64,000 nt of DNA from a virus (IMGVR_UViG_3300035698_002820:7302-71301), one strand, 5' to 3'; counted from the first letter of the stretch, positions 1-15,389 are shown. Notes: a model not told the origin generated them from the sequence alone. Numbers and translations are program-made.

Positions 1-583
1 CATTGCCTTCAGCATCCATTTTGCCAGTTGCCACAGCAAAGGCTGATGCATATGCCTCTTCAATAGTCAATCGAACTGGTATCCAGTCATCTGCTGGACA
101 AATTGACATATCAAATGGGCCCAAACCCTGGTCAATTGCCCACTTCAATGCTACAGGCACCACCACTGTGGCAATGCCTGCGGCACGCATAAGCCGTGCA
201 CACGTAGTACAGTAGAACCCAGGCACCTTGTTGATGAATCGTTTTGTAGTACCAGCATACAAGCCTGCAATGTACATTGTCCCACCAAGGCAACTCTCAC
301 CAAGGTTAAGGGTCCTAATCATAGCAACTTGTTCTGCATGAACACCATAGCACAGTTCATGTTGTGTACCAGATGGGACATCCTTACGCAGGCAAGTGCC
401 ACAAGATACTGGTATTTCTTCATCAGCTGGCCCAACCAATTTGCCATTGATGCCCCCAATTTGTCTGCCACCTGTTGTTACTAAAAAAGCACCATATTGC
501 ATCTTCTGACATGGTGATGCTGCTGACAGAAGTACACACCAAGTAAGTATCATTCTGTCTTCTGCTTTGCCTATGGTAGCCAT
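1..583 (-). CDS. dCMP deaminase (ComEB/deoxycytidylate deaminase family), runs off window edge
   Basis: Not in the ORF track; translated by hand from ATG 583: MATIGKAEDR...SPCQKMQYGAFLV...CGTCLRKDVPSGTQHELCYGVHAEQVAM...FYCTTCARLMRAAGIATVVV. Has the HAE and CxxC zinc motifs and an AAGGAG RBS. Confidence 0.85.
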   Translation of the reverse strand, partial: MATIGKAEDRMILTWCVLLSAASPCQKMQYGAFLVTTGGRQIGGINGKLVGPADEEIPVSCGTCLRKDVPSGTQHELCYGVHAEQVAMIRTLNLGESCLGGTMYIAGLYAGTTKRFINKVPGFYCTTCARLMRAAGIATVVVPVALKWAIDQGLGPFDMSICPADDWIPVRLTIEEAYASAFAVATGKMDAEGN

Positions 584-585
584 GT

Positions 586-1041
586 TCACTCCTTGTGGTG
601 AAGACTTTGCTTGACATCATAGCCGTCTGGATAACGTGCTTGTAGTTTGTCAATGTTGAGTGCCATGACTGTTTCAAATGGCATGCCCATAGCTGCAAGG
701 ACAACTGCTATGTACCACAACACATCTCCTATTTCATCCAGAACCTTCATCCAGTCCAATGGTTCAGTGTCACCATGAAACAGAAACTTCTTGGCAATGT
801 CTGATAACTCACCAGCCTCAGAAGCAATACCAAGCAGGCCGTGCATTATCTGTGTCTCATTATCAGTCAATTCTCTGATATCATAAGGAGACAGTGTGCG
901 CACTACTTCTTTGATGTATTCAGCTGGAGCAGATATTGAGCTGAGAATCTGTGTAGAACCTCTACGGATTCCTTTACAGAATGGGCAACTCTTTCTACCC
1001 TCCTGCCAATCTCTACCACAGTCAATGCAAATCTTTCCCAC
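586..1041 (-). CDS. MazG-like nucleotide pyrophosphohydrolase with N-terminal Zn ribbon
   Basis: GIASEAGELSDIAKK...DEIGDVLWYIA...NIDKLQARYPDG; N-terminal CxxC...CxxC. Confidence 0.85.
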   Translation of the reverse strand: MGKICIDCGRDWQEGRKSCPFCKGIRRGSTQILSSISAPAEYIKEVVRTLSPYDIRELTDNETQIMHGLLGIASEAGELSDIAKKFLFHGDTEPLDWMKVLDEIGDVLWYIAVVLAAMGMPFETVMALNIDKLQARYPDGYDVKQSLHHKE

Positions 1042-1052
1042 ACCAGCCTCCT

Positions 1053-1074
1053 CTTAACAGTCGTCAGGCAGTCA
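1053..1074 (-). promoter_or_regulatory. Conserved phage motif TGACTG-N4-ACGACYGWTARG, copy 1
   Basis: TGACTGCCTGACGACTGTTAAG overlaps the dnaE stop; the GAGGAGG RBS of the MazG gene follows immediately. Confidence 0.7.
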
Positions 1075-4000
1075 CGGCTGTTTGCTTCTGCCATCGTTTA
1101 TACATGGTTGATAGCTTGTATGCCTTGCAGCCTCTGTGGATATCAAGTGCCCAATCATCATCATTCAACCTAGCAAGCTGCAAGATAATGTCTTTGCCCA
1201 TGCGCAGCACTGTCTGTTTGTGGTAGAACTGTTTGTGCCCGGCTGCCCATACAATAAATGGGATGGAACCACTTCCATCCTCAATCATGCAGAATGACAT
1301 TTCGTGATTATTCTTGTCAATGTTGGTTCTGATGCTACGCACTGTGCCTAGAATGCTGATGTTTTCTTGGCCTGATGCCACAGCATCTGCAATAGTCATG
1401 ATGTGCATTGCTTCTCTGAATTCACCATACTTATCCAGAGGATGGACATACAGTGCTTGTTCAAATTCATTTAAGGGCTGGTGTGCTTCTAGTTTGGCTT
1501 GCAATTCATCTAGTCCACACAAGCCAACTGCCCATAGCAACTTCATATATGGGTTGGATTCTACCTTCACAATGAGTGGTACACCTACACCATTGTTGAT
1601 AATATCAGCATTGGCATCATATAGCTTGGTTACAACACGTACTCTCTGGGAGCCAGTTGCATCTCCCACATCCAGGTCAACATACCTAGCATTCCACGGT
1701 GCTTGCATCATGCGTTCCACTTGTTTCATGCGGTCTTCTGTAACATCACCTACTTCAAACTGCCCTACCCTATTGTATTTGATTTCAACAACTGTGCCCT
1801 TGAGCATCATTATTTGGCTTTTGCCGCTGAAGTCAATGTCTCCAATAGAAGCAAAATTCACATGTGGGCCAAAGCCTGCACACAGTGGCTCATAATGAGT
1901 TATCAAGTGCTCTTGAAGTGGTAGTGGATAAACTGAGGCAGCCATTCTGGCCTTTTGTAGTGCGTCCCATTCAGCTGGTTCCTTGGTAAACTGTGTCCAC
2001 AGCACATCTCTTGCACCAAAACAATCAAATGCACCTACCTTGATAAGTGATTTGATGACTCTGGCATTGCACTTTCTACGTACTATTTTATCCAGGAAAT
2101 CTTGGAATGAAATATATGGTCGGTGGGCCACTATCTCTTCCAGTGCCTTGTCCCCACAGAATTTGATGTCTGCCAGACTTGCTCTGATGCCCTTTGGTGT
2201 AGGCAAGAATTGGTCAGCACTTTCATTGATGTCTGGTGGCAGTAATTTCATTCCATTTCTGGTCATTGCTGCAATGTATTCTCTTACCCTATCCAGGTCC
2301 TTCTCACCTGATAGCCAAGCTGCCCAGAACTGCTGTGGGTAGTGAACACGTAGCCACATACACCAATAAGAAATGTGTGAGTAAGCAGTAGCATGCCCAA
2401 GATTGAATCCATAACTGCCAAAGTGTAGAATGCTGGTGTACAAAGTATCAGCCATCTTTTCACCCATCTTGCGTTCCAGACAACCATCAATGAAATAACG
2501 TCTGTGCATCTCCAGTGACTCTACACCTGTGGATTTAGCTATCTTCTTCCTCATTTTGTCTACTTCAACAGCCGGGAAGCCAGCTAACTGCCTAAACAAA
2601 GCCATCACCTGTTCCTGGAAGATGACAATGCCCATGGTATTCTTGGTAATTTCATCATAGATAGGGTGCAGTTTTCTGATTTCTTCTGTGCCCTTACGTC
2701 TGCGTAGATACCTGGCACACAATCCAGAACGCATACCAGAAGGCCTGTACAGTGCATTCAAGTTTATAACATCTATGAAGTTCTCAACAGGTGCTTCTTG
2801 ACAAACACGCATCATGCCACGGCTGTCAAACTGAAAGATGCCTGCTAGATTGCCTGCATCAAATTGTTCATACACTTCTGGACTATCCAGAGGCACATTG
2901 TACAGGTCAAGGTCTTCATCATCTATCAGTGCCAGTGCATATTGTAGTTGAGTCAGCGTAGATAGTCCTAGAACATCCAATTTGAGCAGTCCTATTTTAT
3001 CATCATCACGGTGGTCCGTGGCTGTGACAATATTGTCTTTGCGTCGTTCCAGTGGCACATATTCTACTACTGGTTTGGGTGTCACAATGAGGCCTGCTGC
3101 ATGAATGCCACCATGCCTAAACAAACCTTCCAGTTTCTTGCACAATGGTATCACCTGTGGATGTCGTTTTGCATACTCTTGAGCTTCTTTGAATTCAGAC
3201 AAAGTATCAAGAGCAGTCAAAGAAGCACGGGCATCACCACTGCTGCGAGTAAATACCAGTTTAGTGACCCTGTTTGTCTCATCATAGGAGATGCCCAATA
3301 CTCTGCCAATATCCTTGAGTACCATCCTGCCCTTCATGCTGCCATAGGTACCAATGTGAGCAACATGGTCATCACCATATGTCTCACGCAGATACTGTTC
3401 AATTCTACCACGGTCACAGTCTGGGTAATCCATGTCAATATCTGGACTTGTTACCCGCTGTGGTGCAATGAATCTGTCAAAATCCAACCCATGATAGATA
3501 GGGTCAACCTGAGTAATGTCCAGCAGGTAGCACACCAGACTGGATGCTGATGAGCCTCTGCCTGGGCCAGCCAGAATGCCCTGGCTCTGTACCCACTGAT
3601 ACAAGTCCCATACAATCAACAGATAATTGACAAAGTCCAGTTCCTTGATACGTCCTAGCTCATATCTGAGACGGTCAATATACAGCTGCCTGGTGGTTTG
3701 TATATCAAGTCCAAGATGCTTGGCTGTTTTGCTGACTTGCAGCTTCTGCCAGTTGCCTTTAACAAGATTATACATGAAAGCAAAAGGAGGCATGCCATCA
3801 GGCACCTGCTTGCACAAAGGTGTAATATTGTGTCCAAGTGCCAGCCGTCCATCAATATCTTCAGCAATGCGTATAGTCTCATCCAGCATCTGATTGACAA
3901 AAGACAGTGGTATATCTGCATAGTATTGCTGGAATGAGACAAGCATCTGTGCTCTATTTTTGGGGCACAGCTGCACCAAATCAGATTGCATTTTGGGCTT

Positions 4001-4699
4001 GGCCAGGGTTGATTTTGTCTGTATGCATAGAAGCACATCGTGAGCAAACCAATCATCCATGCCTGGATAGTGAGCATCAGTCGTACAGATGGCCTTGATG
4101 CCTGTTTTATGGGCAATGGACATCAGCCCCATATTGACAGCTACTTGCTGGCGATAAAATGCCCGACCATCAGCTGTGTCTCTGGGCACTAGTGGCATCA
4201 GCTCCAGATAGAAGTTGTCTGCAAACCTATCATAGAACTTCAAAGCTACCTGGGTTGCTTCATCATGTTGCCCATCAATTATCAGCCGTGGTATCTCACC
4301 ACTAGCACAAGCTGAGCTGATAAGTAGGCCGTCCCCATAACGGTCAAGTAAGCTCCAATTGATGGTTGGTTTGTAGTAGAACCCTTCAGTATGGGCTGTA
4401 GATGATAACCTCATCAGGTTACGAAGGCCTGCATCAGTCTGAGCCAGCACTAGCAAGTGGAATTTGGTACGTTGCCGTTCAGGTGCCATGTACATTTCAC
4501 AACCAAGTATGGACTTAATACCAGCCTCATCAGCTGCAACTTGCATCTGATAAATGCCACCCATTGCTCCATGGTCAGTGATAGCAATAGCAGACTGTTC
4601 CAATTCAACAGCCTTTGCTACCAGCTGCTGTGGGGTCTGCATTCCATCAAGTAGACTGTAATGGGTGTGATTGTGTAGTGAAACATACTGGTCAGTCAT
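1064..4699 (-). CDS. dnaE: DNA polymerase III alpha subunit (family C)
   Basis: PHP domain LHNHTHYSLLDG/AITDHG, GPGRGSSASSLV, SPDIDMD, GLLKLDVLGL, YGFNLGHA; probable start MTDQY at 4699. Confidence 0.97.
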   Translation of the reverse strand: MTDQYVSLHNHTHYSLLDGMQTPQQLVAKAVELEQSAIAITDHGAMGGIYQMQVAADEAGIKSILGCEMYMAPERQRTKFHLLVLAQTDAGLRNLMRLSSTAHTEGFYYKPTINWSLLDRYGDGLLISSACASGEIPRLIIDGQHDEATQVALKFYDRFADNFYLELMPLVPRDTADGRAFYRQQVAVNMGLMSIAHKTGIKAICTTDAHYPGMDDWFAHDVLLCIQTKSTLAKPKMQSDLVQLCPKNRAQMLVSFQQYYADIPLSFVNQMLDETIRIAEDIDGRLALGHNITPLCKQVPDGMPPFAFMYNLVKGNWQKLQVSKTAKHLGLDIQTTRQLYIDRLRYELGRIKELDFVNYLLIVWDLYQWVQSQGILAGPGRGSSASSLVCYLLDITQVDPIYHGLDFDRFIAPQRVTSPDIDMDYPDCDRGRIEQYLRETYGDDHVAHIGTYGSMKGRMVLKDIGRVLGISYDETNRVTKLVFTRSSGDARASLTALDTLSEFKEAQEYAKRHPQVIPLCKKLEGLFRHGGIHAAGLIVTPKPVVEYVPLERRKDNIVTATDHRDDDKIGLLKLDVLGLSTLTQLQYALALIDDEDLDLYNVPLDSPEVYEQFDAGNLAGIFQFDSRGMMRVCQEAPVENFIDVINLNALYRPSGMRSGLCARYLRRRKGTEEIRKLHPIYDEITKNTMGIVIFQEQVMALFRQLAGFPAVEVDKMRKKIAKSTGVESLEMHRRYFIDGCLERKMGEKMADTLYTSILHFGSYGFNLGHATAYSHISYWCMWLRVHYPQQFWAAWLSGEKDLDRVREYIAAMTRNGMKLLPPDINESADQFLPTPKGIRASLADIKFCGDKALEEIVAHRPYISFQDFLDKIVRRKCNARVIKSLIKVGAFDCFGARDVLWTQFTKEPAEWDALQKARMAASVYPLPLQEHLITHYEPLCAGFGPHVNFASIGDIDFSGKSQIMMLKGTVVEIKYNRVGQFEVGDVTEDRMKQVERMMQAPWNARYVDLDVGDATGSQRVRVVTKLYDANADIINNGVGVPLIVKVESNPYMKLLWAVGLCGLDELQAKLEAHQPLNEFEQALYVHPLDKYGEFREAMHIMTIADAVASGQENISILGTVRSIRTNIDKNNHEMSFCMIEDGSGSIPFIVWAAGHKQFYHKQTVLRMGKDIILQLARLNDDDWALDIHRGCKAYKLSTMYKRWQKQTAVTA

Positions 4700-5309
4700 T
4701 AAGGTACTCCCATGCAAGTCTTCTGTACTTCTCTCTGTCCCAGCCGTCCTGTTCTGTCTCATACATAATGATAATCAGAAAAGCATAGACTGCCATATCA
4801 ATGAGTGTTTCTTCTACTGTTTCGTTAACTTTGTGGCACCCTTTGTGTTTGATGGAGCGTAGCCGTTCCTTCTTGCTGATTGAGATGATGATGCCAGCAT
4901 AGTATAGAGGCATATCAAATGGTGCACAATAAGCCATGAAATTGGATAGGGGATGTTCAGAGGCATAGTCATGGTTCTTAATGCTGTGTGTATTGTCCAT
5001 CTTATCCAGCCATTCAAGCATGCCATCTATCAGTGTAGGGATGTTTACTAGATGATTTGCTTTGTGGCATATGGCAGCTGCCATAGCCAGGCTGGCAATC
5101 CACAGACATTGAATCTCTATGGTTCTCATGTCAGATAGGCTGTGTAGGTGCTCTGTTATCAGTTCAACTGCTGCATCATAAGCAGAACATTCTTCCACAG
5201 TCATGATTACTGTGAGACGTTCGTGCACGTGCTTGGCCACTTCTTCGATGTTAGAACGCATGGACTGTGTCAACTTGTAAAATCGTGGTGAACCGTGCCT
5301 CTCTGTCAT
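4692..5309 (-). CDS. DUF1599 / nucleotide-modification-associated domain 1-like protein
   Basis: C-terminal KNHDYA...NF...K.ERL...ETVEETLIDMAVYAFL pattern of this all-alpha NTP-pyrophosphatase-like family. Confidence 0.65.
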   Translation of the reverse strand: MTERHGSPRFYKLTQSMRSNIEEVAKHVHERLTVIMTVEECSAYDAAVELITEHLHSLSDMRTIEIQCLWIASLAMAAAICHKANHLVNIPTLIDGMLEWLDKMDNTHSIKNHDYASEHPLSNFMAYCAPFDMPLYYAGIIISISKKERLRSIKHKGCHKVNETVEETLIDMAVYAFLIIIMYETEQDGWDREKYRRLAWEYLND

Positions 5310-6091
5310 TCTCTATCTCCTGCCCAAAAAGTGCCGGCCTGTTCTGCTCCATCCATCCTGATACAGCTGCCACTCAAATATGCCCCACGCTCCAACAAGG
5401 ATAGAATAACCCAAGCCACTTCGCGTGTACTAGCAAACCGGTTGGCAGGCACAAGAGCACGGCGCATTTTCTTCCATTCTTCTATGGTGCTACCACGTTG
5501 TTCAACCAGACATGTATTTACTAGCTTGTCCATTGGGGTATCTTCCACAACACCCAGGTCTAACTGAATAACAGAAAAACGACGTGGTGCCAATTCACGT
5601 GCCAAGCACTGGGTCAAGGCCTGCAGGCCACGTTTGGATGCAGCATAAGCAAATGTTTTGGTGCGTGGGATATCAGCAGCATTGGAGCCAATGTTGACAA
5701 TCATCTTGGTGCCAAATTGATTGCCACACGTAGCCACAAATGCCTTGATGCAGATGAACGGTGCAAGCAGGTTATTTCTCAGTGTGTGTTCAAACTGCCC
5801 CATGGTATACCCATCAAGGCTGCCTAGAACATTGACACCCATACAATTGACAAGGCCATGAATGTCCCCATATTCTTGTTGTACCTGCCAGAAGATGGCC
5901 ATCATGGAGTCCCAGTCAGCACAATCAGCCAGGTATGTTTTGACACCATTTGGAGGTACTTGCATCAAACTGCCATTCTGGTTATCAACTGCTGCCACAT
6001 TGTACTTACCAGCATGCAATGCCTGAACAACAGCAGCACCAATATTGCCGTAGTTAGCTGCTCCCATCACAATTACGGTCTTTCTGTCCAT
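5306..6091 (-). CDS. Short-chain dehydrogenase/reductase (SDR)
   Basis: VIVMGAANYGNIG Rossmann motif, LVNCMG, IVNIGS, YAASK catalytic motif, IRMDGA; start MDRK at 6091. Confidence 0.9.
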   Translation of the reverse strand: MDRKTVIVMGAANYGNIGAAVVQALHAGKYNVAAVDNQNGSLMQVPPNGVKTYLADCADWDSMMAIFWQVQQEYGDIHGLVNCMGVNVLGSLDGYTMGQFEHTLRNNLLAPFICIKAFVATCGNQFGTKMIVNIGSNAADIPRTKTFAYAASKRGLQALTQCLARELAPRRFSVIQLDLGVVEDTPMDKLVNTCLVEQRGSTIEEWKKMRRALVPANRFASTREVAWVILSLLERGAYLSGSCIRMDGAEQAGTFWAGDRE

Positions 6092-6645
6092 TAGTCCTCC
6101 AATAGTGCTTCTATTTGACCATGACATGATTGACACAAGCACACTAGATTATCCAAGCTGTTATCCTGACTAATTCTAAATGGAACTTTGTGATGCACAT
6201 CTGGTTCTTGCCCCATTTCTTCTTGAGTCAAGCCACAATTCTGACAAGTGTGATTGTCTCTTTCAAGTGCTAGTTTACGTTGCTTGTGCCAATCTGAGCC
6301 ATAATTGAATGATGTGCCTCCTTTCCAATTACCATTAAGTGCACCGCTTCTCTTGGCTATTTCTTCTTGTGTATGAACACGTCTTGTTTGTGCAGCACCT
6401 ATTCTGTCCTTGGCCTCTTGTGTATGGGTGCATGTGTGGCCCAATGCACGTTGGTTGCCTATCATAACAGTGTGTATTGCCATCTTGTGCTTCTCAGACA
6501 ATGTACGGCCTGTCAATGCAGCACTTATTGTGGCCCCTTGTTCCAGTGTGCGGTGGCTGCCTGTATTGGCCTGCCATGCAATGACTTGTGCCTTGGCCAA
6601 AATAATCTTGTGTTTTTCAGTTCTTGGGTATACACCTGAAGGCAT
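6091..6645 (-). CDS. HNH homing endonuclease with NUMOD3-like repeats
   Basis: HTQEAKDRIG-type repeats, NWKGG, RDNHTCQNCG...DVHHKVP...NSLDNLVCLCQSCH. Confidence 0.9.
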   Translation of the reverse strand: MPSGVYPRTEKHKIILAKAQVIAWQANTGSHRTLEQGATISAALTGRTLSEKHKMAIHTVMIGNQRALGHTCTHTQEAKDRIGAAQTRRVHTQEEIAKRSGALNGNWKGGTSFNYGSDWHKQRKLALERDNHTCQNCGLTQEEMGQEPDVHHKVPFRISQDNSLDNLVCLCQSCHGQIEALLED

Positions 6646-7601
6646 TATTCTTCTAGTAACATTCTTATATCCGCAGTGATAGTGCGATAGATTTCATCCC
6701 AATCTTGTACCCTGGCAATATTAGGATGTTTCAAGTTTCCATTGTATGGCTGCTCCAACAGCAAGACAGGAGTGCCATCAGATGCCAATTCAAAGGCATA
6801 TTTGTCATGGTCTTCAACAAAGAACAGACATTTAGCAGGATATATGTTGCGTCGTAGGGCATCTGATTTGTCCCTGCTGAACAACAGCATATCATAGGGT
6901 ATGCCATATGTCTTCAACCATTCTGATGTATCATAGAAGATGCGATGTGCACGGGTCTGCCGTCTGGATGTGATAATGACAATCTTGTAACCCAGACGTT
7001 GTAACTTGCGTAGTATCTCAGCAGCCCTGGGATAAATAGGCAGCGTAATAAACCCACCTGATTCTTCAAATGCTTCCTTCAGCTGCTCCAAAGTGTGCTG
7101 GTCAATGTCAAATGCTTCAGCAAAATTGTAGGCAAGAGGCACACTGGTTCGCATTGTGTATCCTTGCTGTCTAACATAATCCCTGAAACCAGTGACATAA
7201 TCAGCTACACACCCATCCAAGTCGATGCCGATGATTTTAGTTCCCTCTTGTAGAACCATTTGTTCTGCCAACCATCTAGCATCTACACGGTCAGATTTGG
7301 CCATGAATTGCTCAAAGAACTCTTCTGGTGTGATATCATAAAGCAAAGCAATTGACAGGATGTATTTGAAGGCATCTACCAGTTCTTCAAGCATGTTGCC
7401 CCGGATAAACGGCTGTCTTGATAGATGGTGTAACTTGAAATTGGTGCACCTGATGATGCCCATGACTTCATCAATCATGGCCATCACATATTCCTTTACC
7501 AGCTGTTCAGTATCTAGTTGGGCATGACTTGTCGCCAGGTTCTGCTGCTGTCTCTTTTGCCTGGCCCATAGAGCAGATAGTTCATTGTTATATTGACTCA
7601 T
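6645..7601 (-). CDS. Fusion: dimeric dUTPase/MazG-like domain + HAD-family 5'(3')-deoxyribonucleotidase
   Basis: N-terminal DEV...EELVDAFKYILSI; C-terminal IGIDLDGCVAD, IVIITSR, DKS, FVEDH, QPYN; start MSQY at 7601. Confidence 0.8.
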   Translation of the reverse strand: MSQYNNELSALWARQKRQQQNLATSHAQLDTEQLVKEYVMAMIDEVMGIIRCTNFKLHHLSRQPFIRGNMLEELVDAFKYILSIALLYDITPEEFFEQFMAKSDRVDARWLAEQMVLQEGTKIIGIDLDGCVADYVTGFRDYVRQQGYTMRTSVPLAYNFAEAFDIDQHTLEQLKEAFEESGGFITLPIYPRAAEILRKLQRLGYKIVIITSRRQTRAHRIFYDTSEWLKTYGIPYDMLLFSRDKSDALRRNIYPAKCLFFVEDHDKYAFELASDGTPVLLLEQPYNGNLKHPNIARVQDWDEIYRTITADIRMLLEE

Positions 7602-8577
7602 GTGGTATCTCCCCATTCTGTTTTTCATACATCCGTGCAACAAGAGTATCTGCCCTGACATTGTGCCGCCACTCTGCCATTCTACCCCATGGCCTGTAGC
7701 CCATGCCATACAGCTTATCAATGTACTCATCAGCAAGTGCTCTGTGCTGTGGCATCTCTACGATATGGCCCAGTTTTGTATGCTGGGTGCTGATGATGGT
7801 AGTCTGTTCCCCAAACATTGCTCCATAAGCTGCTGTCATTGTTGGGTGTAGTTCTGGTTGTCTGGATGATGTTTCCATCACAGCCAGATGTGCTCTACCC
7901 ATGGGCCATGATACTCTATAAAATGGGATATCAGGTTCTGGGAAGTAAACGTAGTCCCATGTATGCTGCAAGTGTGTCCTGCTGTATGCTACATAGGTAT
8001 TTACTAGTACAGCTGGCAACCCACTCACATCTATATCCAGCACTTGCTGCATCACATGGGGCAATGGCACAGTCAGATAGCACTGGTCAAAGTAAACCGG
8101 TGGACTATCCTTGAATACTATTGTGTGGTCCTGGAAACCAATAACCTGCTTATTCCATTGAATGTGTGTCCACATCATTTGTAGCAGGTGATTGTATATT
8201 GTGTACCAGGGATAGCCTCTGTGCATTGGGACATTGTTCTGTGAGGCACGATTCATCAGACTTGCTTGGACTTCTGGTGCCAGTGATGTAGTCCACAGGT
8301 GTCTAGTCTTAAGCAGGTGAGCAGCTATCATTTCTGGTGTTGCTTTGCAATGAGCCACAGTTTCACCCTGCCAGGAGATGCCACCTTGTACTGGCACCAT
8401 TGTTGTTTCCAGGCCCAGCTGCTTCACCCAATCATCAACATGTTTAGTGCTGTGTAAATAGTGCAGGCCTGATTGCTGCCTAACAGGCCCAGAAGTCATG
8501 TCATATACAGTAGCATCCTTGTGAAAGTAAGCAGCAATCAGGCCACTCATACCTGCCCCAACAATTATCCTTTTCAC
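7588..8577 (-). CDS. FAD-dependent oxidoreductase, UDP-galactopyranose-mutase/protoporphyrinogen-oxidase-like fold
   Basis: GTG start VKRIIVGAGMSGLIAA (GxGxxG), GLHYLH, WDYVYFPEPDIPFYRV, GRMAEWRH. Confidence 0.75.
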   Translation of the reverse strand: MKRIIVGAGMSGLIAAYFHKDATVYDMTSGPVRQQSGLHYLHSTKHVDDWVKQLGLETTMVPVQGGISWQGETVAHCKATPEMIAAHLLKTRHLWTTSLAPEVQASLMNRASQNNVPMHRGYPWYTIYNHLLQMMWTHIQWNKQVIGFQDHTIVFKDSPPVYFDQCYLTVPLPHVMQQVLDIDVSGLPAVLVNTYVAYSRTHLQHTWDYVYFPEPDIPFYRVSWPMGRAHLAVMETSSRQPELHPTMTAAYGAMFGEQTTIISTQHTKLGHIVEMPQHRALADEYIDKLYGMGYRPWGRMAEWRHNVRADTLVARMYEKQNGEIPHESI

Positions 8578-8578
8578 A

Positions 8579-8776
8579 CTATTCTCCTTCCGTTTGCACC
8601 TGTGCCATGAAGTTATCAATGGCAGTTCGGACTGAAGGAACAGCACCATCACAGCTTGTTTCGTGAAGTCGCCATCCTCTACCATGCTGTGATGTCCGCA
8701 GAATCACTGTGCCTGTGTATTCAGCACCATCAGTTAGTTTCTGCAGAAAGTCCAGCCGTTCTTTATCTGTCGGCAC
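8579..8776 (-). CDS. Hypothetical protein
   Basis: GGAG RBS, tightly packed in the operon. Confidence 0.6.
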   Translation of the reverse strand: MPTDKERLDFLQKLTDGAEYTGTVILRTSQHGRGWRLHETSCDGAVPSVRTAIDNFMAQVQTEGE

Positions 8777-9145: not shown

Positions 9146-9922
9146 TTAGTCCTCCTCTTCCTCATCAAAGAACGTATCAAGAGATGACAATTGAGCCAGC
9201 AATGCATTGACGTCCTGTATGCCAGCAGCTGCCTTTACTGGTGCAGCAGCTACTTCTTCTTTCTTCGCTGCCACAGTTGTCTTGAAGGCTGCCTGAGATG
9301 TGCCATCCATCATGACTTCATCCAACATTGCACCCCAGATTGGAGGCAGTTCAGGTATGTCTTCATTGAAGACAGAAGGGTCATCAGGGTCAAATGTGTA
9401 GGTAGTGTTCTGGGACTTGCCCTTCCTACTGACATCATAGTCACGGTCACTCAACGTCCCACGCTTATCGAAGTAGGCAGTCAAAGTGCAACTGACACGC
9501 CAGCCCTGGGAGAACAGCATCGGGCCATCAACTTCCTCTTTGAATAGGGTGGTCTGACCAACTACTACTGCTTCCCACCCATCGTCCTTCTGCTGTGTGT
9601 GCAAGACATAGTGTACCCACAGCCACATGCCAAACCTGAAACCAGGGCTGTTGCCTGCATCACAGTGTTCACATGCACCAGAATCTTTAGTGCAAGCAAA
9701 CATTTTCCACCATCTACGTCCTGTCTTACTGACTTGTGGCATGCTATGGAAGTCTCCTGATACCACAGCAGTTTCAAAGTCAGTGATGAACCGCACCTTG
9801 GCACTCTCACCGTCCTTTAGGAACAACTTGGGAACGAATGTACCAAAGCCAGCTACGGCCTCATCAATTTCAGACTGCCGTTCACGCATAGCAGCCAAGC
9901 CTGTTAGCATACTCATTTTCAA
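9146..9922 (-). CDS. gp32-like single-stranded DNA-binding protein
   Basis: LKDGESAKVRF, H...C...CEHC zinc site, DRDYDVSRKG...TTYTF, acidic C-terminal tail DTFFDEEEED. Confidence 0.75.
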   Translation of the reverse strand: MKMSMLTGLAAMRERQSEIDEAVAGFGTFVPKLFLKDGESAKVRFITDFETAVVSGDFHSMPQVSKTGRRWWKMFACTKDSGACEHCDAGNSPGFRFGMWLWVHYVLHTQQKDDGWEAVVVGQTTLFKEEVDGPMLFSQGWRVSCTLTAYFDKRGTLSDRDYDVSRKGKSQNTTYTFDPDDPSVFNEDIPELPPIWGAMLDEVMMDGTSQAAFKTTVAAKKEEVAAAPVKAAAGIQDVNALLAQLSSLDTFFDEEEED

Positions 9923-10482
9923 TCCTCCTCTGTATTATTGTTGATAAAGTGCTTGCGCCGCACTTCTTCCAGTACTTCAGCAATTAAGGAAGTATACAAG
10001 ATGCCAGGTGCCTGTGATGCTACTGCAATATCTTCAGCCGTTGCCCTTGCTATAAATAGTTCTGCTGCGTGCACATGAGCAGTACTCAGCTGTGTAGCCT
10101 CATCCAGTAGAATCTGACGCCAGTTTGTCACATTACGTACACTCATAGCATCATTGACTGTACACAACATCCTGTCCAGCTTATCTCCGTGGTTGTCACT
10201 GCCGAAAAGGTCAGTAAAGGTGAATGTGTTTCTACGTCCATCATTATAGCCATAGCGCAGTAATGATGTAGCTTTATACTTGAGGCACACTCTGAGGTAA
10301 TTCTCAAATGGGCCTTCTTCTGGTTTATATGAACCCCAGGCCATCACAAATGTCATCAGAAGTTCTTGTTCAACATCTTCTGCTTCCATGCCTGGGACAT
10401 ATATTTTGGTGGCCATCTTGTGTATGACTGATTGCCATTCTATCAGAACAGCCTCAATGCTCTGGCCATCAATTACTTGCAC
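9919..10482 (-). CDS. Sigma-70-like factor (region 2 recognisable)
   Basis: IHKMATK...EAEDVEQELLMTFVMAWGSYKPEEGPFENYLRVCLK matches the sigma region 2 pattern; region 4 unclear. Confidence 0.7.
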   Translation of the reverse strand: MQVIDGQSIEAVLIEWQSVIHKMATKIYVPGMEAEDVEQELLMTFVMAWGSYKPEEGPFENYLRVCLKYKATSLLRYGYNDGRRNTFTFTDLFGSDNHGDKLDRMLCTVNDAMSVRNVTNWRQILLDEATQLSTAHVHAAELFIARATAEDIAVASQAPGILYTSLIAEVLEEVRRKHFINNNTEED

Positions 10483-11434
10483 TGTTTACCTCACATTGCT
10501 GCATGAGCCAAAGACTATACCACATAGCATTTGTCAATGCATATCGCACCTGACTTACTGACAAATCTGCAGGGTCACAACCTGTACTGTCTGGAGGATA
10601 CTTGGCAATGAATACTGCCATCTTGTCCTGCAACTGCGTAGCAATTTTGTCTGTGGCTATGGCACCTGCCTCATCATTGTCAAAAAACAGAGTTACTGTA
10701 TGGGCACGCTGTAGTACCATCCTTATCTGAACTGCTGATATGGATGAGCCAAAGACTGCTACTGCATTATCAAACCCATACTGGTGTAGCCTCAGGCAGC
10801 TTGTTGGTCCTTCAGTCAAGATGAGCACCCTGCTATTGCCTGCTCTGTGTAGGCCAAATAAGATGCTGTTACGTGGTGTTCCATGGTCATGGTGGTATTT
10901 GTTTTCACCCTCAAGAGGATGAATCAAACGTCTGGTAGCTCCAACAACCATCCCCCATGGGTCACGAACTGGAATGACAACTGCACGTCGCATCTTATCA
11001 TAGCCAACGTCCCACTCCCTAGAGAAAGGTTCATCAAATCCCCTAGTTTCTGTCCAATAAGGATGGATGTAGGCAGGGTCATAATTCTCAAGCACCACCT
11101 GGCGGTACTTTGTGGTTGGCTGAAAAGCCTGAGTATTGAGTAGCTTGAGCATTTCTGTCTGACTATAAGCTGATGCCAGCTGCAGCAGCTGTCTCACAGA
11201 TGCCATCATGTTATCACCTGTCATCAGGTGCCACAGTTGAGTGATGTTACCTGCTCCACAGCCCTTGTGACACATCCACAACCCGGTCTTTTTGTTGACA
11301 GCAAAGCTGGGGTTGGTGTCAGTGTGAAATGGACAATGAGCATAGTACTCACTGGATGTTGCTTGTGAGATACGAATGCCCAATGCATTTAACACCCGTT
11401 TGACTTGCAACTGCTTACCATGGTAGTTCATCAT
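10469..11434 (-). CDS. dnaG: DNA primase (CHC2 Zn finger + TOPRIM)
   Basis: CPFHTDTNPSFAVN...WMCHKGCG, VVIPVRD, ILTEG, LFFDNDEAG, DPAD; start MMNY at 11434. Confidence 0.9.
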   Translation of the reverse strand: MMNYHGKQLQVKRVLNALGIRISQATSSEYYAHCPFHTDTNPSFAVNKKTGLWMCHKGCGAGNITQLWHLMTGDNMMASVRQLLQLASAYSQTEMLKLLNTQAFQPTTKYRQVVLENYDPAYIHPYWTETRGFDEPFSREWDVGYDKMRRAVVIPVRDPWGMVVGATRRLIHPLEGENKYHHDHGTPRNSILFGLHRAGNSRVLILTEGPTSCLRLHQYGFDNAVAVFGSSISAVQIRMVLQRAHTVTLFFDNDEAGAIATDKIATQLQDKMAVFIAKYPPDSTGCDPADLSVSQVRYALTNAMWYSLWLMQQCEVNSASN

Positions 11435-11984
11435 CTTCTCCGTGGTGTGGTAAGTCAATGCCGTACAATGCTGCACGTTTTTTGGACAAGAACTTAAACA
11501 TCCCAGCACCACATACAGGACAACTGCCTTTAGCTGCCAAGCGGCCATTCTTCATGGTTACTTCTTTGGCATCTTTTATGACTCTCTTCTCCCTGCACTT
11601 AACACAGTAGCCTTCCACTTCCATAGCCACATTCAATAGCAGGTCAAAATGGCCACCCAATATGTCTTGCTTTTTCTTGCGCCAGTCTGCTTCTTGCTGC
11701 TCTAATTCTCTACGTGCCTCTGCATGGCCTGTGGTTGCCTCTTGTTCTTCATCAAAGATGGTGAAGGTTTTGCCGCAGTCATTACAGAGACAGTGTGTGG
11801 CCCACCCAACTTGACTACAGTGTGTACGAGTCAATATGGTGTGTGATAAGTGGGGACAGACAGGCTTTTTATCTGTCAACTGCTCATCGAAAACAAGTGA
11901 AGCTGTGCCACACATCGGGCATGTGTAAGACGTTATCCATCCTGCCTGATTATCGTGCCACCGTTTGATTACTATGGTTTTCAC
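11415..11984 (-). CDS. Zn-ribbon protein with C-terminal DUF5679-like domain
   Basis: YCVKCREKRVIKDAKEVTMKNGRLAAKGSCPVCGAGMFK; further CxxC pairs N-terminal. Confidence 0.65.
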   Translation of the reverse strand: MKTIVIKRWHDNQAGWITSYTCPMCGTASLVFDEQLTDKKPVCPHLSHTILTRTHCSQVGWATHCLCNDCGKTFTIFDEEQEATTGHAEARRELEQQEADWRKKKQDILGGHFDLLLNVAMEVEGYCVKCREKRVIKDAKEVTMKNGRLAAKGSCPVCGAGMFKFLSKKRAALYGIDLPHHGEDDELPW

Positions 11985-12091: not shown

Positions 12092-12113
12092 CTTAACAGT
12101 CGTTATGCAGTCA
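12092..12113 (-). promoter_or_regulatory. Conserved phage motif, copy 2
   Basis: TGACTGCATAACGACTGTTAAG overlaps the clpP stop. Confidence 0.7.
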
Positions 12114-12771
12114 CCACTTTGTCAATCAAACCGTATTCCAGTGCTTCTTCCAGGTTGAACCACAAGTCCTTTTTCCAGATGTGTTGCTCTACTTCTTCTT
12201 GTGTCCTGCCAGTAGCCTCAGCTAGAATACCTGATAAGACAGCCTGCAGCTTTTTCATTTCTACTACTTGCTCTGCCAAATCAGAAGTTGTTTCATTGGA
12301 GAAGAATTTGAATTGACTGACTTCATGGATAAGCAAGCGTGCATTGGGCATCATCTCACGTGTACTGCCGGCCTGCAAGACAATACAGGCCATACTGGCG
12401 GCTGTGCCACTTGCCATAGTTGTGACATGTATGCCCTTAGCACGTGCCAGCATAATGTAGTCATAGATGGCCAATCCAGCTTGGACTTCACCGCCCTGGC
12501 TGTGGATAATGATTTTGATGGGGGTGGTGTCCTGATTTATCAGGTATTCTAGTTCTTCATTGAAACGTGCAGCATCTGATGAATAGATTTCACCTTCAAT
12601 GGACACAACCCTGCGCTCCAATCTGTGCTGGCGCAGCCGGTCATAGAACCCTAAACCTAACATCCTAGATGCCTCCGCATCACTTATCTGGGCCAGTTCT
12701 TCAGGGCACTTATCTGCTCTCATGATTCTCTCCTTTGGGTGGAATTTTTTGGAACCCTTTTCATCTCTCAT
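12103..12771 (-). CDS. clpP: ClpP-family serine protease
   Basis: IIIHSQGGEVQAGLAIYD, AASMA (Ser), LLIHEV (His), KDLWFNLEEALEYGLIDKV. Confidence 0.9.
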   Translation of the reverse strand: MRDEKGSKKFHPKERIMRADKCPEELAQISDAEASRMLGLGFYDRLRQHRLERRVVSIEGEIYSSDAARFNEELEYLINQDTTPIKIIIHSQGGEVQAGLAIYDYIMLARAKGIHVTTMASGTAASMACIVLQAGSTREMMPNARLLIHEVSQFKFFSNETTSDLAEQVVEMKKLQAVLSGILAEATGRTQEEVEQHIWKKDLWFNLEEALEYGLIDKVVTA

Positions 12772-14130: not shown

Positions 14131-15389
14131 TCTCCTAATAAGGTTAATGCTTCATCAAATATATCCGTAACTTCACCGATTTTGCCACGGTCAATACCAA
14201 ATGAGATAACAAATGGTTTAGCTACACCACTACGTCGTGCTGCCTGTACCCCAATTTGCCTGAATTTTGGGTCACCCTGGGGCATTGCCATGCTGATGAC
14301 ATAATCACAAGCTTGTCCAACTGCGTCACCCAAAACAATGTCCTGTAGTTTGGGCAGTTTAGCAACCTTTACCTGGCGGCCTGCCTGGGATGTTACAATG
14401 ATAGGCACATTGCAGTTGATAGCCACACTTTTCAGACCATATGCAATATGGTACATTTTCATCCAACTTTGCTCAGCACCTTCAACATCTTGCAGCAGTG
14501 GCATGCCATCCACACACACCAGGTCTGGCTTATGCCTTTGAATGAATGCCTCAACTGCAGGTACAGAAAAAGGCTTGCCCTCATCACAGCTTGCTGTCAC
14601 CCAATCTTTACGTTTGGCAGCATTAGTCAAGAATTCCCTATACTGCTGGACATTGATGTCCTTGCCTTGACCTAAACCTGTGTTGCTGAAACCACCCATC
14701 AGGGTATCCCAGCGGGCATTGACTTCTTCTACAGGCATTTCTGGTGATAAAAATAAAATGCGTTGTCCTGCTCTGTATGCTGTGCACCCTATGTGCATAA
14801 GTAACCAACTTTTGCCCAATTTAGGTCTGCCGATAATGCCTACAAGCATACCAGGACGCCAGCCACCAAACAAGGCATCCAATGTATCAAAGCCAGTTGG
14901 GATACCTACAAGTCCTTTTTGACTTACAGTCAATGCACGCTCAACATATTCATCAGCACGCTCAAGTGCATTGCCATCTGTATGGCTGATAGCATTGAAA
15001 GGCATCCTGATGCAGCCCTTCAGTTCTTCACTCATGAGGGCAATTGTTTCAGCAGGCAAGGCCATCAAATTGGGAATGTGCTTAACCATCACTTGCTGAG
15101 CTGACAAATACATTGTGTGCTCAAGCAACAAATCTATGTAATAACCCAGAGCATAGTCTGATTCTGATAAAACTAATTCAGGCCAACGTCCAGCCAGCAC
15201 CTGTGCTGATGGTACGGTTTGATAGCGTTTGGAGTACTCATAGACAAATTCCAGCACATCAGCATAAACATGAAAATCTTCTGGTGTAACATTGGCTCCT
15301 TTTAACCTGGCAATATCACCTGCATCGTGGACACAGGATAGAATGCCCAATTCAATAGTGCTGGTGACTGCTACTTGACTATCTGGCAC
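14127..15389 (-). CDS. dnaB: DnaB-like replicative helicase
   Basis: GIPTGFDTLD, GRPKLGKS Walker A, SPEM, LVCVDG, IIVTSQ, QACD. Confidence 0.92.
   Translation of the reverse strand: MPDSQVAVTSTIELGILSCVHDAGDIARLKGANVTPEDFHVYADVLEFVYEYSKRYQTVPSAQVLAGRWPELVLSESDYALGYYIDLLLEHTMYLSAQQVMVKHIPNLMALPAETIALMSEELKGCIRMPFNAISHTDGNALERADEYVERALTVSQKGLVGIPTGFDTLDALFGGWRPGMLVGIIGRPKLGKSWLLMHIGCTAYRAGQRILFLSPEMPVEEVNARWDTLMGGFSNTGLGQGKDINVQQYREFLTNAAKRKDWVTASCDEGKPFSVPAVEAFIQRHKPDLVCVDGMPLLQDVEGAEQSWMKMYHIAYGLKSVAINCNVPIIVTSQAGRQVKVAKLPKLQDIVLGDAVGQACDYVISMAMPQGDPKFRQIGVQAARRSGVAKPFVISFGIDRGKIGEVTDIFDEALTLLGE

What the first reader, a model, noticed from the sequence alone, without database searches (positions are those of the whole stretch)
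1..8577. Candidate uncharacterised pre-replicative nucleotide-modification pathway wrapped around DnaE
Seen, contiguous: FAD oxidoreductase (UGM-like motifs), dUTPase-like+HAD fusion, SDR, DUF1599-like protein, DnaE, MazG and dCMP deaminase, continuing beyond the window. That amounts to three all-alpha NTP-pyrophosphatase-type domains, a nucleotidase and two redox enzymes. Known: phages that replace a canonical base pair a dNTP-destroying MazG/dUTPase and a dCMP deaminase with their own polymerase, and DUF1599 (Nmad1) was defined by association with base-modification clusters. SDR and UGM folds act on NDP-sugars and related small molecules. Inference: the phage makes a modified (possibly sugar-bearing) pyrimidine dNTP that DnaE incorporates. 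I recall similar gene sets in some DnaE-encoding actinophages, but I know of no defined product.
Basis: partly seen in the sequence, partly recalled or inferred. Interest (0 to 1): 0.75.

Follow-up and report, generated by a model that had tools for sequence, protein, structure and literature searches.

The report
Phage flavoprotein-ThyX pyrimidine cassette around DnaE
An uncultured salt-lake phage carries, wrapped around its own DNA polymerase gene, a tightly packed enzyme set built on a sugar-mutase-like flavoprotein and an unusual thymidylate synthase; the same pair is kept together in hundreds of phages, some of which were recently found to carry sugar-like modified thymine made by unknown genes.

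Summary
The rest of the 71-kb genome adds a ThyX two genes further on.

This ThyX is a distinct subfamily (ThyX*). The His of the RHR motif is never present, and four extra cysteines are conserved in 79 of 81 sequences.

F is a true but truncated relative of UDP-galactopyranose mutase (Z 27.6; profile E 3e-10). It keeps the residues that align with A. fumigatus UGM Y317, R327 and R447.

F lies upstream of ThyX* on the same strand in 72 of 80 viral contigs, and the other 8 are cut upstream. Genus counts of F and ThyX* among isolated phages match almost exactly. These phages include Pbunavirus, which carries a sugar-like thymidine by LC-MS with no genes assigned in the preprint, and Wifcevirus, which has unexplained restriction resistance.

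My best reading (0.5) is a thymidine-type modification pathway. The pre-replicative route and the product are inferred. The main rival is plain dTMP supply with F as a redox helper. This is a further member of an uncharacterised but widespread cassette.

The parts
7588..8577 (-). Flavoprotein F, 329 aa: a truncated UDP-galactopyranose-mutase-like FAD protein
   Evidence: GxGxxG motif and C-terminal GR..W motif. AF2 model made with a 21-row alignment: pLDDT 85. Foldseek top hits are UGM at E 2e-17. VIA Z 27.6 with 326 residues aligned to T. cruzi UGM, against about 21 for protoporphyrinogen oxidase. The A3 profile hits UGM chains at 3e-10, and Y211/R221/R299 align with A. fumigatus UGM Y317/R327/R447. 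Pfam gives only NAD_binding_8 below its cutoff.
6645..7601 (-). Fusion of an all-alpha NTP-pyrophosphatase-like N-domain with a HAD 5'(3')-deoxyribonucleotidase-like C-domain
   Evidence: NT5C 35.7 bits. dUTPase_2 21.8 bits (cutoff 22.9). phrog_173 3.5e-6 and phrog_420 5.5e-26. DLDGC and EELVD motifs are seen in the translation. A HAD gene follows F in related loci; only 6 of 29 of this HAD type carry the N-domain.
6091..6645 (-). HNH homing-type endonuclease, inserted in the cassette and not part of the pathway
   Evidence: PF01844 at 1.5e-8; phrog_8446 at 1.7e-24. Homing endonucleases are common inside the cassette in relatives.
5306..6091 (-). Classical short-chain dehydrogenase/reductase (FabG-like)
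   Evidence: adh_short 99.5 bits; phrog_3142. PDB relatives are classical SDRs. YAASK is seen in the translation. 27% identical to the Carpasina SDR at the same position. An SDR is found in 47 of 80 related loci.
4692..5309 (-). DUF1599 (Nmad1) protein
   Evidence: PF07659 27.5 bits, cutoff 25. Atlas neighbours are viral DUF1599 clusters. One homologue at 46% identity.
1064..4762 (-). DnaE-type DNA polymerase III alpha
   Evidence: PHP, DNA_pol3_alpha, finger and HHH_6 domains. phrog_405 at 3e-285. About 31-36% identical to phage DnaE proteins.
586..1041 (-). MazG-type nucleotide pyrophosphohydrolase with an N-terminal CxxC..CxxC ribbon
   Evidence: PF03819 30.3 bits; phrog_229 at 2.4e-29. Translation.
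1..589 (-). dCMP/cytidine deaminase-family protein (198 aa; its end lies just outside the window)
   Evidence: PF00383 30.9 bits; phrog_174. HAEQ and CTTC zinc-binding motifs in the translation. The operon continues outside the window (G000:C1 coordinates): a 114-aa ORF at 6926-7270, ThyX* at 6235-6948 and RecA at 5318-6247.

Best explanation
The region is this phage's copy of a widespread phage-only cassette whose fixed core is a UGM-like flavoprotein (F) plus a distinct ThyX subfamily (ThyX*: RHR changed to RTR or RQR, four extra conserved cysteines). The cassette sits in the replication operon beside DnaE.

I read it as a pathway that makes a thymidine-type nucleotide other than, or in addition to, plain dTMP. 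The proposed steps are:
1. dCMP deaminase and MazG supply dUMP.
2. ThyX* and F, both flavin enzymes whose relatives work through flavin-N5 adducts, put a carbon substituent on C5 of the uracil nucleotide. The substituent is possibly sugar-derived.
3. The SDR tailors it.
4. The pyrophosphatase-nucleotidase fusion removes a competing or intermediate pyrimidine nucleotide.
5. DnaE polymerises the product.

Shown: the identity of each gene, operon packing, the UGM relationship of F, the ThyX* signature, and the strict F-ThyX* linkage.
Inferred: that the DNA is modified at all in this phage, the chemistry, and that the step is pre-replicative. I put nucleotide-level against DNA-level at roughly 2:1 within this reading.
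For: - Gene identities and coupling.
- F is a UGM homologue that keeps the YFPE..PFYR and GR..W active-site motifs.
- ThyX* keeps the residues that align with the dUMP- and FAD-binding motif of M. tuberculosis ThyX (R78, R80, R91, R142, R169) but forms its own subfamily. Position 79 is T 44, Q 34, S 3 and His 0 of 81 sequences. C171, C205, C211 and C221 are present in 79 of 81.
- Among the 80 IMG/VR loci fetched through ThyX*, F lies upstream on the same strand in 72. The 8 without it have 0 to 3,451 nt of upstream DNA, or (L012) start inside the HAD gene that follows F.
- In isolated phages the genus counts of ThyX* and F match: Pseudomonas 291/292, Escherichia 27/27, Serratia 9/9, Rhizobium 8/8, Xanthomonas 6/6, Gordonia 46/46, Microbacterium 36/36, Mycobacterium 32/32, Streptomyces 9/9. 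DnaE relatives occur in 1449 records.
- The F profile hits Pbunavirus NH-4 gp67 at 2.5e-24 and Carpasina at 1.6e-27.
- Pbunavirus F8 and 14-1 carry new thymidine-derived nucleosides of 362 and 390 Da, read as sugar-like derivatives. The word 'thymidylate' does not occur in the preprint (PMC12191111, passages).
- Relatives carry variable tailoring-type genes inside the cassette: Methyltransf_11 in 5, radical SAM/SPASM in 1, weak VOC in 2, DUF4406 in 2 and UDG in 2 of 87 proteins scanned. A fixed core with variable tailoring enzymes is the pattern of hypermodification clusters.
Against: - There are no chemical data for this phage. It is known only from salt-lake metagenome contigs.
- dCMP deaminase, ThyX and a dUTPase-like enzyme are also the textbook dTMP-supply set, and ThyX* keeps the core catalytic motif.
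- No glycosyltransferase, kinase or methyltransferase was found anywhere in this genome.
- The SDR is the classical type, not the NDP-sugar type.
- The Pbunavirus modification replaces only about a quarter of T and is reported in a TG context. That fits a sequence-reading enzyme on DNA better than incorporation of a modified dNTP.
- The link between the cassette and the Pbunavirus modification is by co-occurrence only.
- Many phages with the cassette (cluster D mycobacteriophages and others) have no reported modification that I know of (recalled, not searched).
Confidence: 0.5

Rival explanations
1. Ordinary dTMP supply and pool sanitation. dCMP deaminase and MazG (acting as a dUTPase) feed dUMP to a working thymidylate synthase (ThyX*). 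F is its dedicated NAD(P)H-dependent flavin or redox helper, perhaps needed because of the lost His and the Cys4 site. The HAD fusion and SDR tune nucleotide pools. No modified base is made.
For: - The textbook enzyme set is present.
- ThyX* keeps the residues aligned with the M. tuberculosis ThyX motif.
- No other thymidylate synthase is present in the genome.
- Eukaryotic UGMs bind NAD(P)H directly (PDB titles 5vwt and 5vwu), so a UGM-like reductase is conceivable.
- Most T in Pbunavirus is canonical (PMC12191111).
- Strict F-ThyX* linkage is exactly what an obligate two-component synthase would show.
Against: - Canonical ThyX needs no partner (established knowledge).
- F keeps the UGM substrate-site Tyr/Arg motif rather than looking like a flavin reductase.
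- The SDR, HAD and variable methyltransferase and radical-SAM genes travel with the pair.
- Pbunavirus and Wifcevirus show modification or unexplained RM resistance, with no other candidate genes named in the texts I read.
Confidence: 0.28
2. Post-replicative DNA modification. The cassette makes an activated (sugar) donor, with F acting as an NDP-sugar mutase and the SDR and HAD as sugar-tailoring enzymes. A separate, still unrecognised transferase attaches it to thymine or a precursor base in DNA at a sequence motif. ThyX*, deaminase and MazG only supply nucleotides.
For: - F is closest to UGM, an NDP-sugar enzyme.
- The Pbunavirus modification is partial and reported at TG (PMC12191111; bioRxiv 10.64898/2026.09.21.753257, passages).
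- SDR and HAD enzymes are common in sugar-nucleotide pathways (general knowledge).
Against: - No glycosyltransferase or DNA-binding transferase was found in this genome by Pfam.
- F is linked to ThyX* far more tightly than to any candidate transferase.
- No route from unmodified thymine in DNA to a C5-methyl-substituted product is known without an oxidase or a 5-hmdU precursor, and neither is seen here.
Confidence: 0.17
3. A loose collection of unrelated auxiliary metabolic genes that merely share the early or replication operon.
For: Phage replication modules often gather nucleotide-metabolism genes. The accessory members (MazG, dCMP deaminase, DUF1599) are rare among the related loci: MazG in 3 of 80, and dCMP deaminase and DUF1599 once each among the scanned ORFs.
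Against: The order and strand of F, HAD, SDR, DnaE and ThyX* are conserved across 8 ThyX* clusters at 50% identity and across hosts from Actinobacteria to Proteobacteria.
Confidence: 0.05

Closest known systems
Pbunavirus / Wifcevirus / Carpasinavirus replication module (e.g. Pseudomonas phage NH-4 gp67 - gp61 ThyX - gp59 - gp58 - gp57 DnaE; Escherichia phage vB_Eco4M-7 gp82-gp75; Xanthomonas phage Carpasina)
   Same: Same core. The F homologue is hit by the profile at 2.5e-24 (NH-4) and 1.6e-27 (Carpasina). ThyX* is 29-30% identical with the same RTR motif and four cysteines. A HAD phosphatase, an SDR (Carpasina, Wifcevirus) and DnaE lie on one strand.
   Different: The order there is F-ThyX-HAD-SDR-exonuclease-DnaE. 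In the window it is F-HAD-SDR-DUF1599-DnaE-MazG-deaminase-ThyX. The window has no separate DEDD exonuclease, its HAD carries an N-terminal pyrophosphatase-like domain, and it adds MazG and dCMP deaminase. Chemistry is known only for Pbunavirus, and its genes are unassigned in the preprint.
Actinophage 'oxidoreductase - nucleotidase/hydrolase - FabG-like - DnaE - (MazG) - ThyX-like' block (Mycobacterium phage Hawkeye gp70-78, Gordonia phage MoiGyank gp72-86)
   Same: Same gene order as the window. ThyX is 29-33% identical and the SDR 35% over its C-terminal half.
   Different: The actinophage F is shorter (about 265-282 aa) and matches the window's F profile only at the two ends (E 3e-4 and 4e-3). 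There is no dCMP deaminase. The function is unassigned in the annotations.
UDP-galactopyranose mutase (Glf/UGM; T. cruzi 4dsg, A. fumigatus 3ute, K. pneumoniae 1wam)
   Same: Shared fold: Z 27.6, rmsd 3.1, 326 residues aligned. Profile E 3e-10. The YFPE..PFYR and GR..W motifs align with A. fumigatus UGM Y317, R327, R447 and W451.
   Different: F has 329 aa against 367-517. Identity is 12-18%. No Pfam GLF match. A. fumigatus UGM Y453 is His in the window protein. The context is nucleotide metabolism, not glycan synthesis. F is linked to ThyX*, not to a galactofuranosyltransferase.
Canonical flavin-dependent thymidylate synthase ThyX (M. tuberculosis 3gwc/2af6, T. maritima 1kq4)
   Same: Thy1 domain, 98.5 bits. 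The profile aligns to M. tuberculosis ThyX at 2e-16 with the R-x-R...S-x-R, Q/D-A-R..LP and N-x-R...R motifs conserved.
   Different: The single sequence finds no PDB ThyX at E<=0.001. His of RHR is absent in 81 of 81 sequences. Four subfamily-specific cysteines are present in 79 of 81. It is always accompanied by F.
5-hmdU-based thymidine hypermodification (phages M6, ViI, SP10, PhiW-14; Lee et al. 2018, 2021: PMC8989533, search listing only)
   Same: It is a phage strategy of replacing part of T with a bulky C5 derivative, and its genes sit next to replication genes.
   Different: That pathway needs a ThyA-type dUMP hydroxymethylase, a 5-hmdU DNA kinase and aGPT-Pplase transferases (recalled). 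None was detected in this genome by Pfam or PHROGs.

Membership tests
UDP-galactopyranose mutase superfamily | N-terminal FAD Rossmann GxGxxG | tested here: met
   IVGAGMSG in the translation. G7, G9 and G12 are invariant or nearly invariant in 21- and 45-row alignments.
UDP-galactopyranose mutase superfamily | UGM three-domain fold | tested here: met
   The AF2 model (pLDDT 85) matches UGM best. Foldseek E 2e-17, TM 0.75. VIA Z 27.6-24 for eukaryotic UGM and 19-21 for bacterial UGM, against about 21 for PPO and about 18.6 for L-amino-acid oxidase.
UDP-galactopyranose mutase superfamily | Active-site Tyr and Arg of the YFPE..PFYR motif (A. fumigatus UGM Y317, R327) and Arg of the GR..W motif (R447) | tested here: met
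   In the profile-to-PDB alignment, Y211, R221 and R299 of the window protein fall on these residues. R221 and R299 are invariant in 45 rows. The numbering was derived from the alignment offsets and the PDB mutant titles.
UDP-galactopyranose mutase superfamily | Second phosphate-binding Arg on the mobile loop (A. fumigatus UGM R182), uridine-binding residues, Tyr453 | tested here: inconclusive
   A. fumigatus UGM Y453 aligns with His305 of the window protein. The R182 region was not aligned by the profile, and I had no coordinates to superpose.
UDP-galactopyranose mutase superfamily | Match to the curated family model | tested here: not met
   Pfam returns only NAD_binding_8 at 17.2 bits, under its 21.9 cutoff. 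The single-sequence PDB search finds nothing.
ThyX (PF02511) | Thy1 domain above the curated cutoff | tested here: met
   98.5 bits against 24.8.
ThyX (PF02511) | ThyX motif RHR(x)7S and downstream Arg residues | tested here: inconclusive
   R78, R80, S/T89, R91, R142, R160 and R169 are conserved and align with M. tuberculosis ThyX. The His is replaced (T 44, Q 34, S 3 of 81). The effect on catalysis is unknown.
ThyX (PF02511) | dUMP to dTMP activity with CH2-THF and NADPH | not testable with these tools
   Needs an enzyme assay or thyA complementation.
dCMP/cytidine deaminase (PF00383) | Domain above cutoff and H-A-E / C-x-x-C zinc motifs | tested here: met
   30.9 bits against 25. HAEQ and CTTC in the translation. 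The substrate (dCMP, dCTP or cytidine) was not tested.
MazG / all-alpha NTP pyrophosphatase | Curated model match | tested here: met
   The protein at 586-1041 scores PF03819 30.3 bits against 22. The N-domain of the HAD fusion scores dUTPase_2 21.8 bits against 22.9, just below the cutoff, and is supported by phrog_173 at 3.5e-6. For DUF1599, hhalign shows no link to MazG (probability under 10%, shallow alignments).
HAD 5'(3')-deoxyribonucleotidase (NT5C, PF06941) | Model above cutoff and DxDx(T/V) motif | tested here: met
   35.7 bits against 24.8. DLDGC in the translation.
Classical SDR | adh_short above cutoff, YxxxK | tested here: met
   99.5 bits. YAASK is present. The Gly-rich motif reads GAANYGNIG instead of TGxxxGxG. 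There is no Epimerase (extended SDR) match in the window protein.
5-hmdU-based thymidine hypermodification system | ThyA-type hydroxymethylase, 5-hmdU DNA kinase, aGPT-Pplase | tested here: not met
   No such family appears among the Pfam or PHROG hits for any ORF of the genome scanned (22 + 12 + 64 proteins). The list of defining components is recalled.
Pbunavirus-type F-ThyX* cassette | F homologue upstream of ThyX* on the same strand, with HAD and DnaE | tested here: met
   The window genome has F-H-S-E-M-T on one strand. The same holds for 72 of 80 related loci, and the other 8 are cut upstream.
Pbunavirus-type F-ThyX* cassette | Modified thymidine in virion DNA | not testable with these tools
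   Only assembled metagenome contigs hold this DNA.

The most novel reading that the evidence does not exclude
ThyX* and the UGM-like flavoprotein together form a new kind of 'thymidylate synthase'. It would transfer a sugar-derived carbon chain, rather than a methylene, to C5 of dUMP. UGM chemistry makes a flavin-N5 iminium with an opened sugar. ThyX chemistry passes a flavin-N5 iminium carbon to C5 of dUMP. Joined, the two would give 5-(polyhydroxyalkyl)- or C-glycosyl-dUMP. Added to deoxyuridine (228 Da), a deoxypentityl chain gives 362 Da and an anhydrohexosyl group gives 390 Da, the masses reported for Pbunavirus F8 and 14-1. This arithmetic and the mechanism are my inference, and no call tests them. 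The SDR, the HAD phosphatase and the variable methyltransferases or radical SAM enzymes would tailor the chain, and the phage DnaE would accept the product.
Probability: 0.15. Interest if true: 0.9.

Novelty: new variant of a known kind. Interest (0 to 1): 0.62.

Why it matters
Phage DNA hypermodifications decide whether restriction enzymes, CRISPR and modification-dependent nucleases can stop a phage. They also supply new enzymes for DNA chemistry.

Pbunaviruses, which are widely used in therapy, were only recently found to carry a sugar-like thymidine, and no genes are assigned in the text I could read. This work shows that a UGM-like flavoprotein and a cysteine-rich ThyX subfamily form an essentially obligate pair across hundreds of phages of Actinobacteria and Proteobacteria. 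It also gives residue-level handles on both proteins: Y211, R221 and R299 in F, and the four cysteines in ThyX*.

That makes a concrete, cheap test possible: knock out or co-express the pair and analyse nucleotides by LC-MS. If the pair makes the modified base, a large and well-sampled set of phages (cluster D mycobacteriophages, Gordonia and Microbacterium phages, Wifcevirus, Carpasinavirus) would be predicted to have modified DNA. If it does not, the pair is a new two-component thymidylate synthase.

The window itself is one more, rather divergent, member: its closest ThyX* is 41% identical.

Tried and rejected
- Megablast of 1-8700 against phages: no match.
- Word-indexed homologue search for F: only F itself among 1264 candidates. 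The full HMMER search then gave 21 proteins including F itself.
- Single-sequence AF2 of F: pLDDT 33.6, unusable.
- Single-sequence PDB searches for F, DUF1599 and ThyX: nothing significant.
With F itself it found no pattern match. With its best homologue P0009 it gave 11 pattern matches, none confirmed. I then used ThyX* as the bait instead.
- Complex prediction of two ThyX* chains plus F: score 0.00, no verdict, controls not run. This is no evidence either way.
- hhalign of DUF1599 against MazG, the fusion's N-domain and the positionally equivalent 169-aa proteins of Hawkeye and Carpasina: best probability 8.7%.
- Sequencing runs: 7 salt-lake metagenome runs hold the DNA, all as contigs, and no RNA holder is listed. 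No raw long reads were available to look for modification signals, and read laying was not used.
- Lee et al. 2026 on 5-hydroxycytosine (PMC13326640, outline and passages): it concerns ThyA homologues and a true UGM in phage RL38J1, not this cassette.
- The journal version of Yee et al. (Nat Microbiol 2026, cited) is not held. It may assign genes that the preprint does not.
- Searches for a published gene assignment found none: 'ThyX, hypermodification, phage', 'galactopyranose mutase, phage, thymidylate synthase, DNA modification', 'Pbunavirus, hypermodified', and 'FabG-like, ThyX, DnaE, oxidoreductase, phage' (which returned only genome announcements).
- I considered and dropped the idea that CpG depletion and TpG excess are tied to the cassette. 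The 80 related loci have a median CpG odds ratio of 1.07.

Full report
**What is there.**
The window is 64,000 of the 71,301 bases of a single-contig phage genome. The contig's two ends share an exact 127-bp overlap, so the assembly is closed or terminally redundant. All genes run on the minus strand.

Reading with transcription from 8577 down to 1, Pfam and PHROGs give:
- Flavoprotein F, 7588-8577.
- A fusion of an all-alpha NTP-pyrophosphatase-like domain with a HAD/NT5C nucleotidase, 6645-7601.
- An HNH endonuclease, 6091-6645.
- A classical SDR, 5306-6091.
- A DUF1599 protein, 4692-5309.
- DnaE, 1064-4762.
- MazG, 586-1041.
- A dCMP-deaminase-family protein, 1-589.

Starts were set from ribosome-binding sites. 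Neighbouring genes overlap by 1-14 nt or more, so this is one operon.

Upstream lie an SSB-like protein, a sigma-like protein, DnaG, a ClpP-like protease, DnaB and ParB. The rest of the window holds small unknown genes and siphovirus-type structural genes. No glycosyltransferase, kinase or methyltransferase was found there.

**Beyond the window.**

**The flavoprotein.**
- Sequence searches with F alone find almost nothing: and only 5 phage records.
- A full HMMER search of 1.84 billion representatives gives 21 proteins, including F itself, at E<=0.001. All are about 300 aa.
- With their alignment, AlphaFold2 gives a confident model (pLDDT 85, pTM 0.85). The single-sequence model had failed.
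- The model's best matches are UDP-galactopyranose mutases. Foldseek gives E 2e-17. VIA-align gives Z 27.6 with 326 of 329 residues aligned to T. cruzi UGM, Z 24-26 for A. fumigatus UGM and Z 19-21 for bacterial UGM. Protoporphyrinogen oxidases reach about 21 and L-amino-acid oxidases about 18.6.
- A 45-row family profile also finds UGM chains first by sequence alone (3e-10).
- In that alignment the family's invariant Y211, R221 and R299 fall on A. fumigatus UGM Y317, R327 and R447, residues whose mutants appear among the PDB titles. A. fumigatus UGM Y453 is His in the window protein.

The language-model atlas places it among virus-only unnamed clusters (for DUF1599; for F).

**The ThyX.**
- Alone, it finds no solved ThyX.
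- A five-phage profile aligns to M. tuberculosis ThyX at 2e-16 with the core motifs in register.
- Across 81 sequences (80 related loci plus this genome), the His of the canonical RHR motif is never present: T 44, Q 34, S 3. Four cysteines, C171 next to the conserved R169 plus C205, C211 and C221, are present in 79 of 81. They are invariant in a 35-row diverse subset.
- The retrieval patterns did not include these positions.

I call this subfamily ThyX*. The cysteines suggest a Zn or Fe-S site, but that is inference.

**Linkage.**
I used ThyX* as bait in IMG/VR. 151 stretches matched, 85 were confirmed and 80 loci were kept. Local profile searches of all ORFs gave these counts:

| Gene | Loci with it (of 80) |
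|---|---|
| F, first pass | 65 |
| F, after one rebuild | 72 |
| DnaE | 68 |
| SDR | 47 |
| HAD phosphatase (either type) | 63 |

- F is always on the ThyX* strand and upstream of it.
- The 8 loci without F have 0 to 3,451 nt of upstream DNA, or (L012) begin inside the HAD gene that follows F. No assessable locus lacks F.
- Two gene orders occur: F-ThyX*-...-DnaE (38 loci) and F-...-DnaE-ThyX* (26 loci). The window has the second order.
- The ThyX* proteins fall into 41 clusters at 70% identity and 8 at 50%. The window's is a singleton, with its best match at 41% (L011).

In isolated phages the genus tallies of ThyX* (506 records) and of F agree almost one for one. The F tallies come from searches with the Pbunavirus protein (362 records) and the Hawkeye protein (126 records).

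| Host genus | ThyX* records | F records |
|---|---|---|
| Pseudomonas | 291 | 292 |
| Escherichia | 27 | 27 |
| Serratia | 9 | 9 |
| Rhizobium | 8 | 8 |
| Xanthomonas | 6 | 6 |
| Gordonia | 46 | 46 |
| Microbacterium | 36 | 36 |
| Mycobacterium | 32 | 32 |
| Streptomyces | 9 | 9 |

DnaE relatives occur in 1449 records, so the tight bond is F with ThyX*, not with DnaE. These are tallies, not a record-by-record table.

Annotated examples show the same blocks: Carpasina, Hawkeye, MoiGyank, Pbunavirus NH-4 and Wifcevirus vB_Eco4M-7. The F profile hits NH-4 gp67 at 2.5e-24 and Carpasina at 1.6e-27. It hits the two actinophage 'oxidoreductases' only weakly.

**What relatives tell us.**
- Yee et al. 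(PMC12191111; abstract and passages read) report new thymidine-derived nucleosides of 362 and 390 Da in Pbunavirus F8 and 14-1. These replace about a quarter of T, are read as sugar-alcohol or aldopentose derivatives, and occur in a TG context.
- The authors note that such phages lack known modification genes. The word 'thymidylate' does not occur in the preprint. The journal version is not held.
- Humolli et al. [quoted passage not shown]
- A 2026 preprint notes that the 14-1 modification does not block the nucleases it tested.
- Inside the cassette, relatives carry variable enzymes: Methyltransf_11 in 5, radical SAM/SPASM in 1, weak VOC in 2, DUF4406 in 2, UDG in 2, dCMP deaminase in 1 and DUF1599 in 1 of 87 proteins scanned. 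They also carry many homing endonucleases and an intein in one ThyX*.

**Interpretation.**
A fixed flavoenzyme pair with HAD and SDR companions and lineage-specific tailoring genes, sitting beside the replicase, looks like a nucleotide-tailoring pathway centred on the C5 position of a uracil nucleotide. In this window dCMP deaminase and MazG would feed dUMP. The pyrophosphatase-nucleotidase fusion could clear a competing pyrimidine dNTP down to the nucleoside.

I give 0.5 to 'makes a non-canonical thymidine'. The rivals are:
- Plain dTMP supply with F as a redox partner of a ThyX that has lost its His (0.28).
- F, SDR and HAD as makers of a sugar donor for an unseen DNA transferase (0.17).
- A loose collection of unrelated genes (0.05).

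Nothing here measures chemistry. This phage is known only from salt-lake metagenome contigs.

**Earlier notes of this scan.**
Look-ups showed 17 earlier AI notes on similar flavoprotein-ThyX-DnaE cassettes and pointed me to the Pbunavirus paper. I tested their main claims here independently:
- The F-ThyX linkage, the UGM-like fold and the Pbunavirus homology all hold.
- I did not test the claim in one note that the ThyX has lost folate-handling residues.

**Limits.**
- The F counts rest on my own ORF calls and on a profile rebuilt once from its own hits.
- Residue equivalences come from profile alignments, not from superposed coordinates.
- The complex prediction gave no verdict.
- DUF1599's fold class was not established.
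- Supplements of the cited papers were not opened.

Noticed in passing
whole genome (window 1-64000 and G000:C1:1-7301): Strong genome-wide CpG depletion (odds ratio 0.37; 0.31-0.63 in 10-kb bins) with TpG/CpA excess (1.53). The closest relative L011 shares it (CpG 0.27), as do four other low-GC loci. The 80 related loci in general do not (median 1.07). It is probably a host or lineage trait and remains unexplained.
   Followed up: partly
G000:C1 ends (window end 64000 and genome start): The last and first 127 bases of the contig are identical, so the assembly is circular or terminally redundant, with a unique length of 71,174 bp. ORFs are cut at both ends, including a protein with a disaggregatase-related repeat at window 63331-63993.
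   Followed up: partly
G000:C1:6235-6948 (outside the window) and L011-L090: The ThyX subfamily linked to F has four conserved cysteines (C171, C205, C211, C221; 79 of 81 sequences) and never has the His of the RHR motif. This may be a metal or Fe-S site beside the catalytic Arg.
   Followed up: partly
window 6091-6645 and 15379-15876; G000:C1:4618-5325: Two HNH endonuclease genes of the same PHROG (phrog_8446) sit inside the nucleotide cassette and next to DnaB. A Vsr/DUF559-like endonuclease sits next to RecA. These are likely homing elements in the replication operon.
   Followed up: no
window 12103-12771: A ClpP-family protease gene (127.8 bits) lies among the replication genes, far from the head genes. 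PHROGs call its relatives head maturation proteases.
   Followed up: no
window 9919-10482 and 11415-11984: A sigma-70 region-2-like protein lies upstream of the primase gene. A DUF5679 zinc-ribbon protein has an ORF that overlaps the primase ORF by about 130 nt.
   Followed up: no
L090:9920-11929; L025, L037, L047, L085: In relatives, one ThyX* carries an intein with HTH domains. In several loci DnaE is split into about 300-aa and 780-aa ORFs; in two of them (L037, L085) an endonuclease gene (EndoVII, HNH_3) lies between the halves.
   Followed up: no
window 586-1041: The MazG protein has an N-terminal CxxC...CxxC zinc-ribbon-like extension of about 50 residues that the MazG model does not cover.
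   Followed up: no
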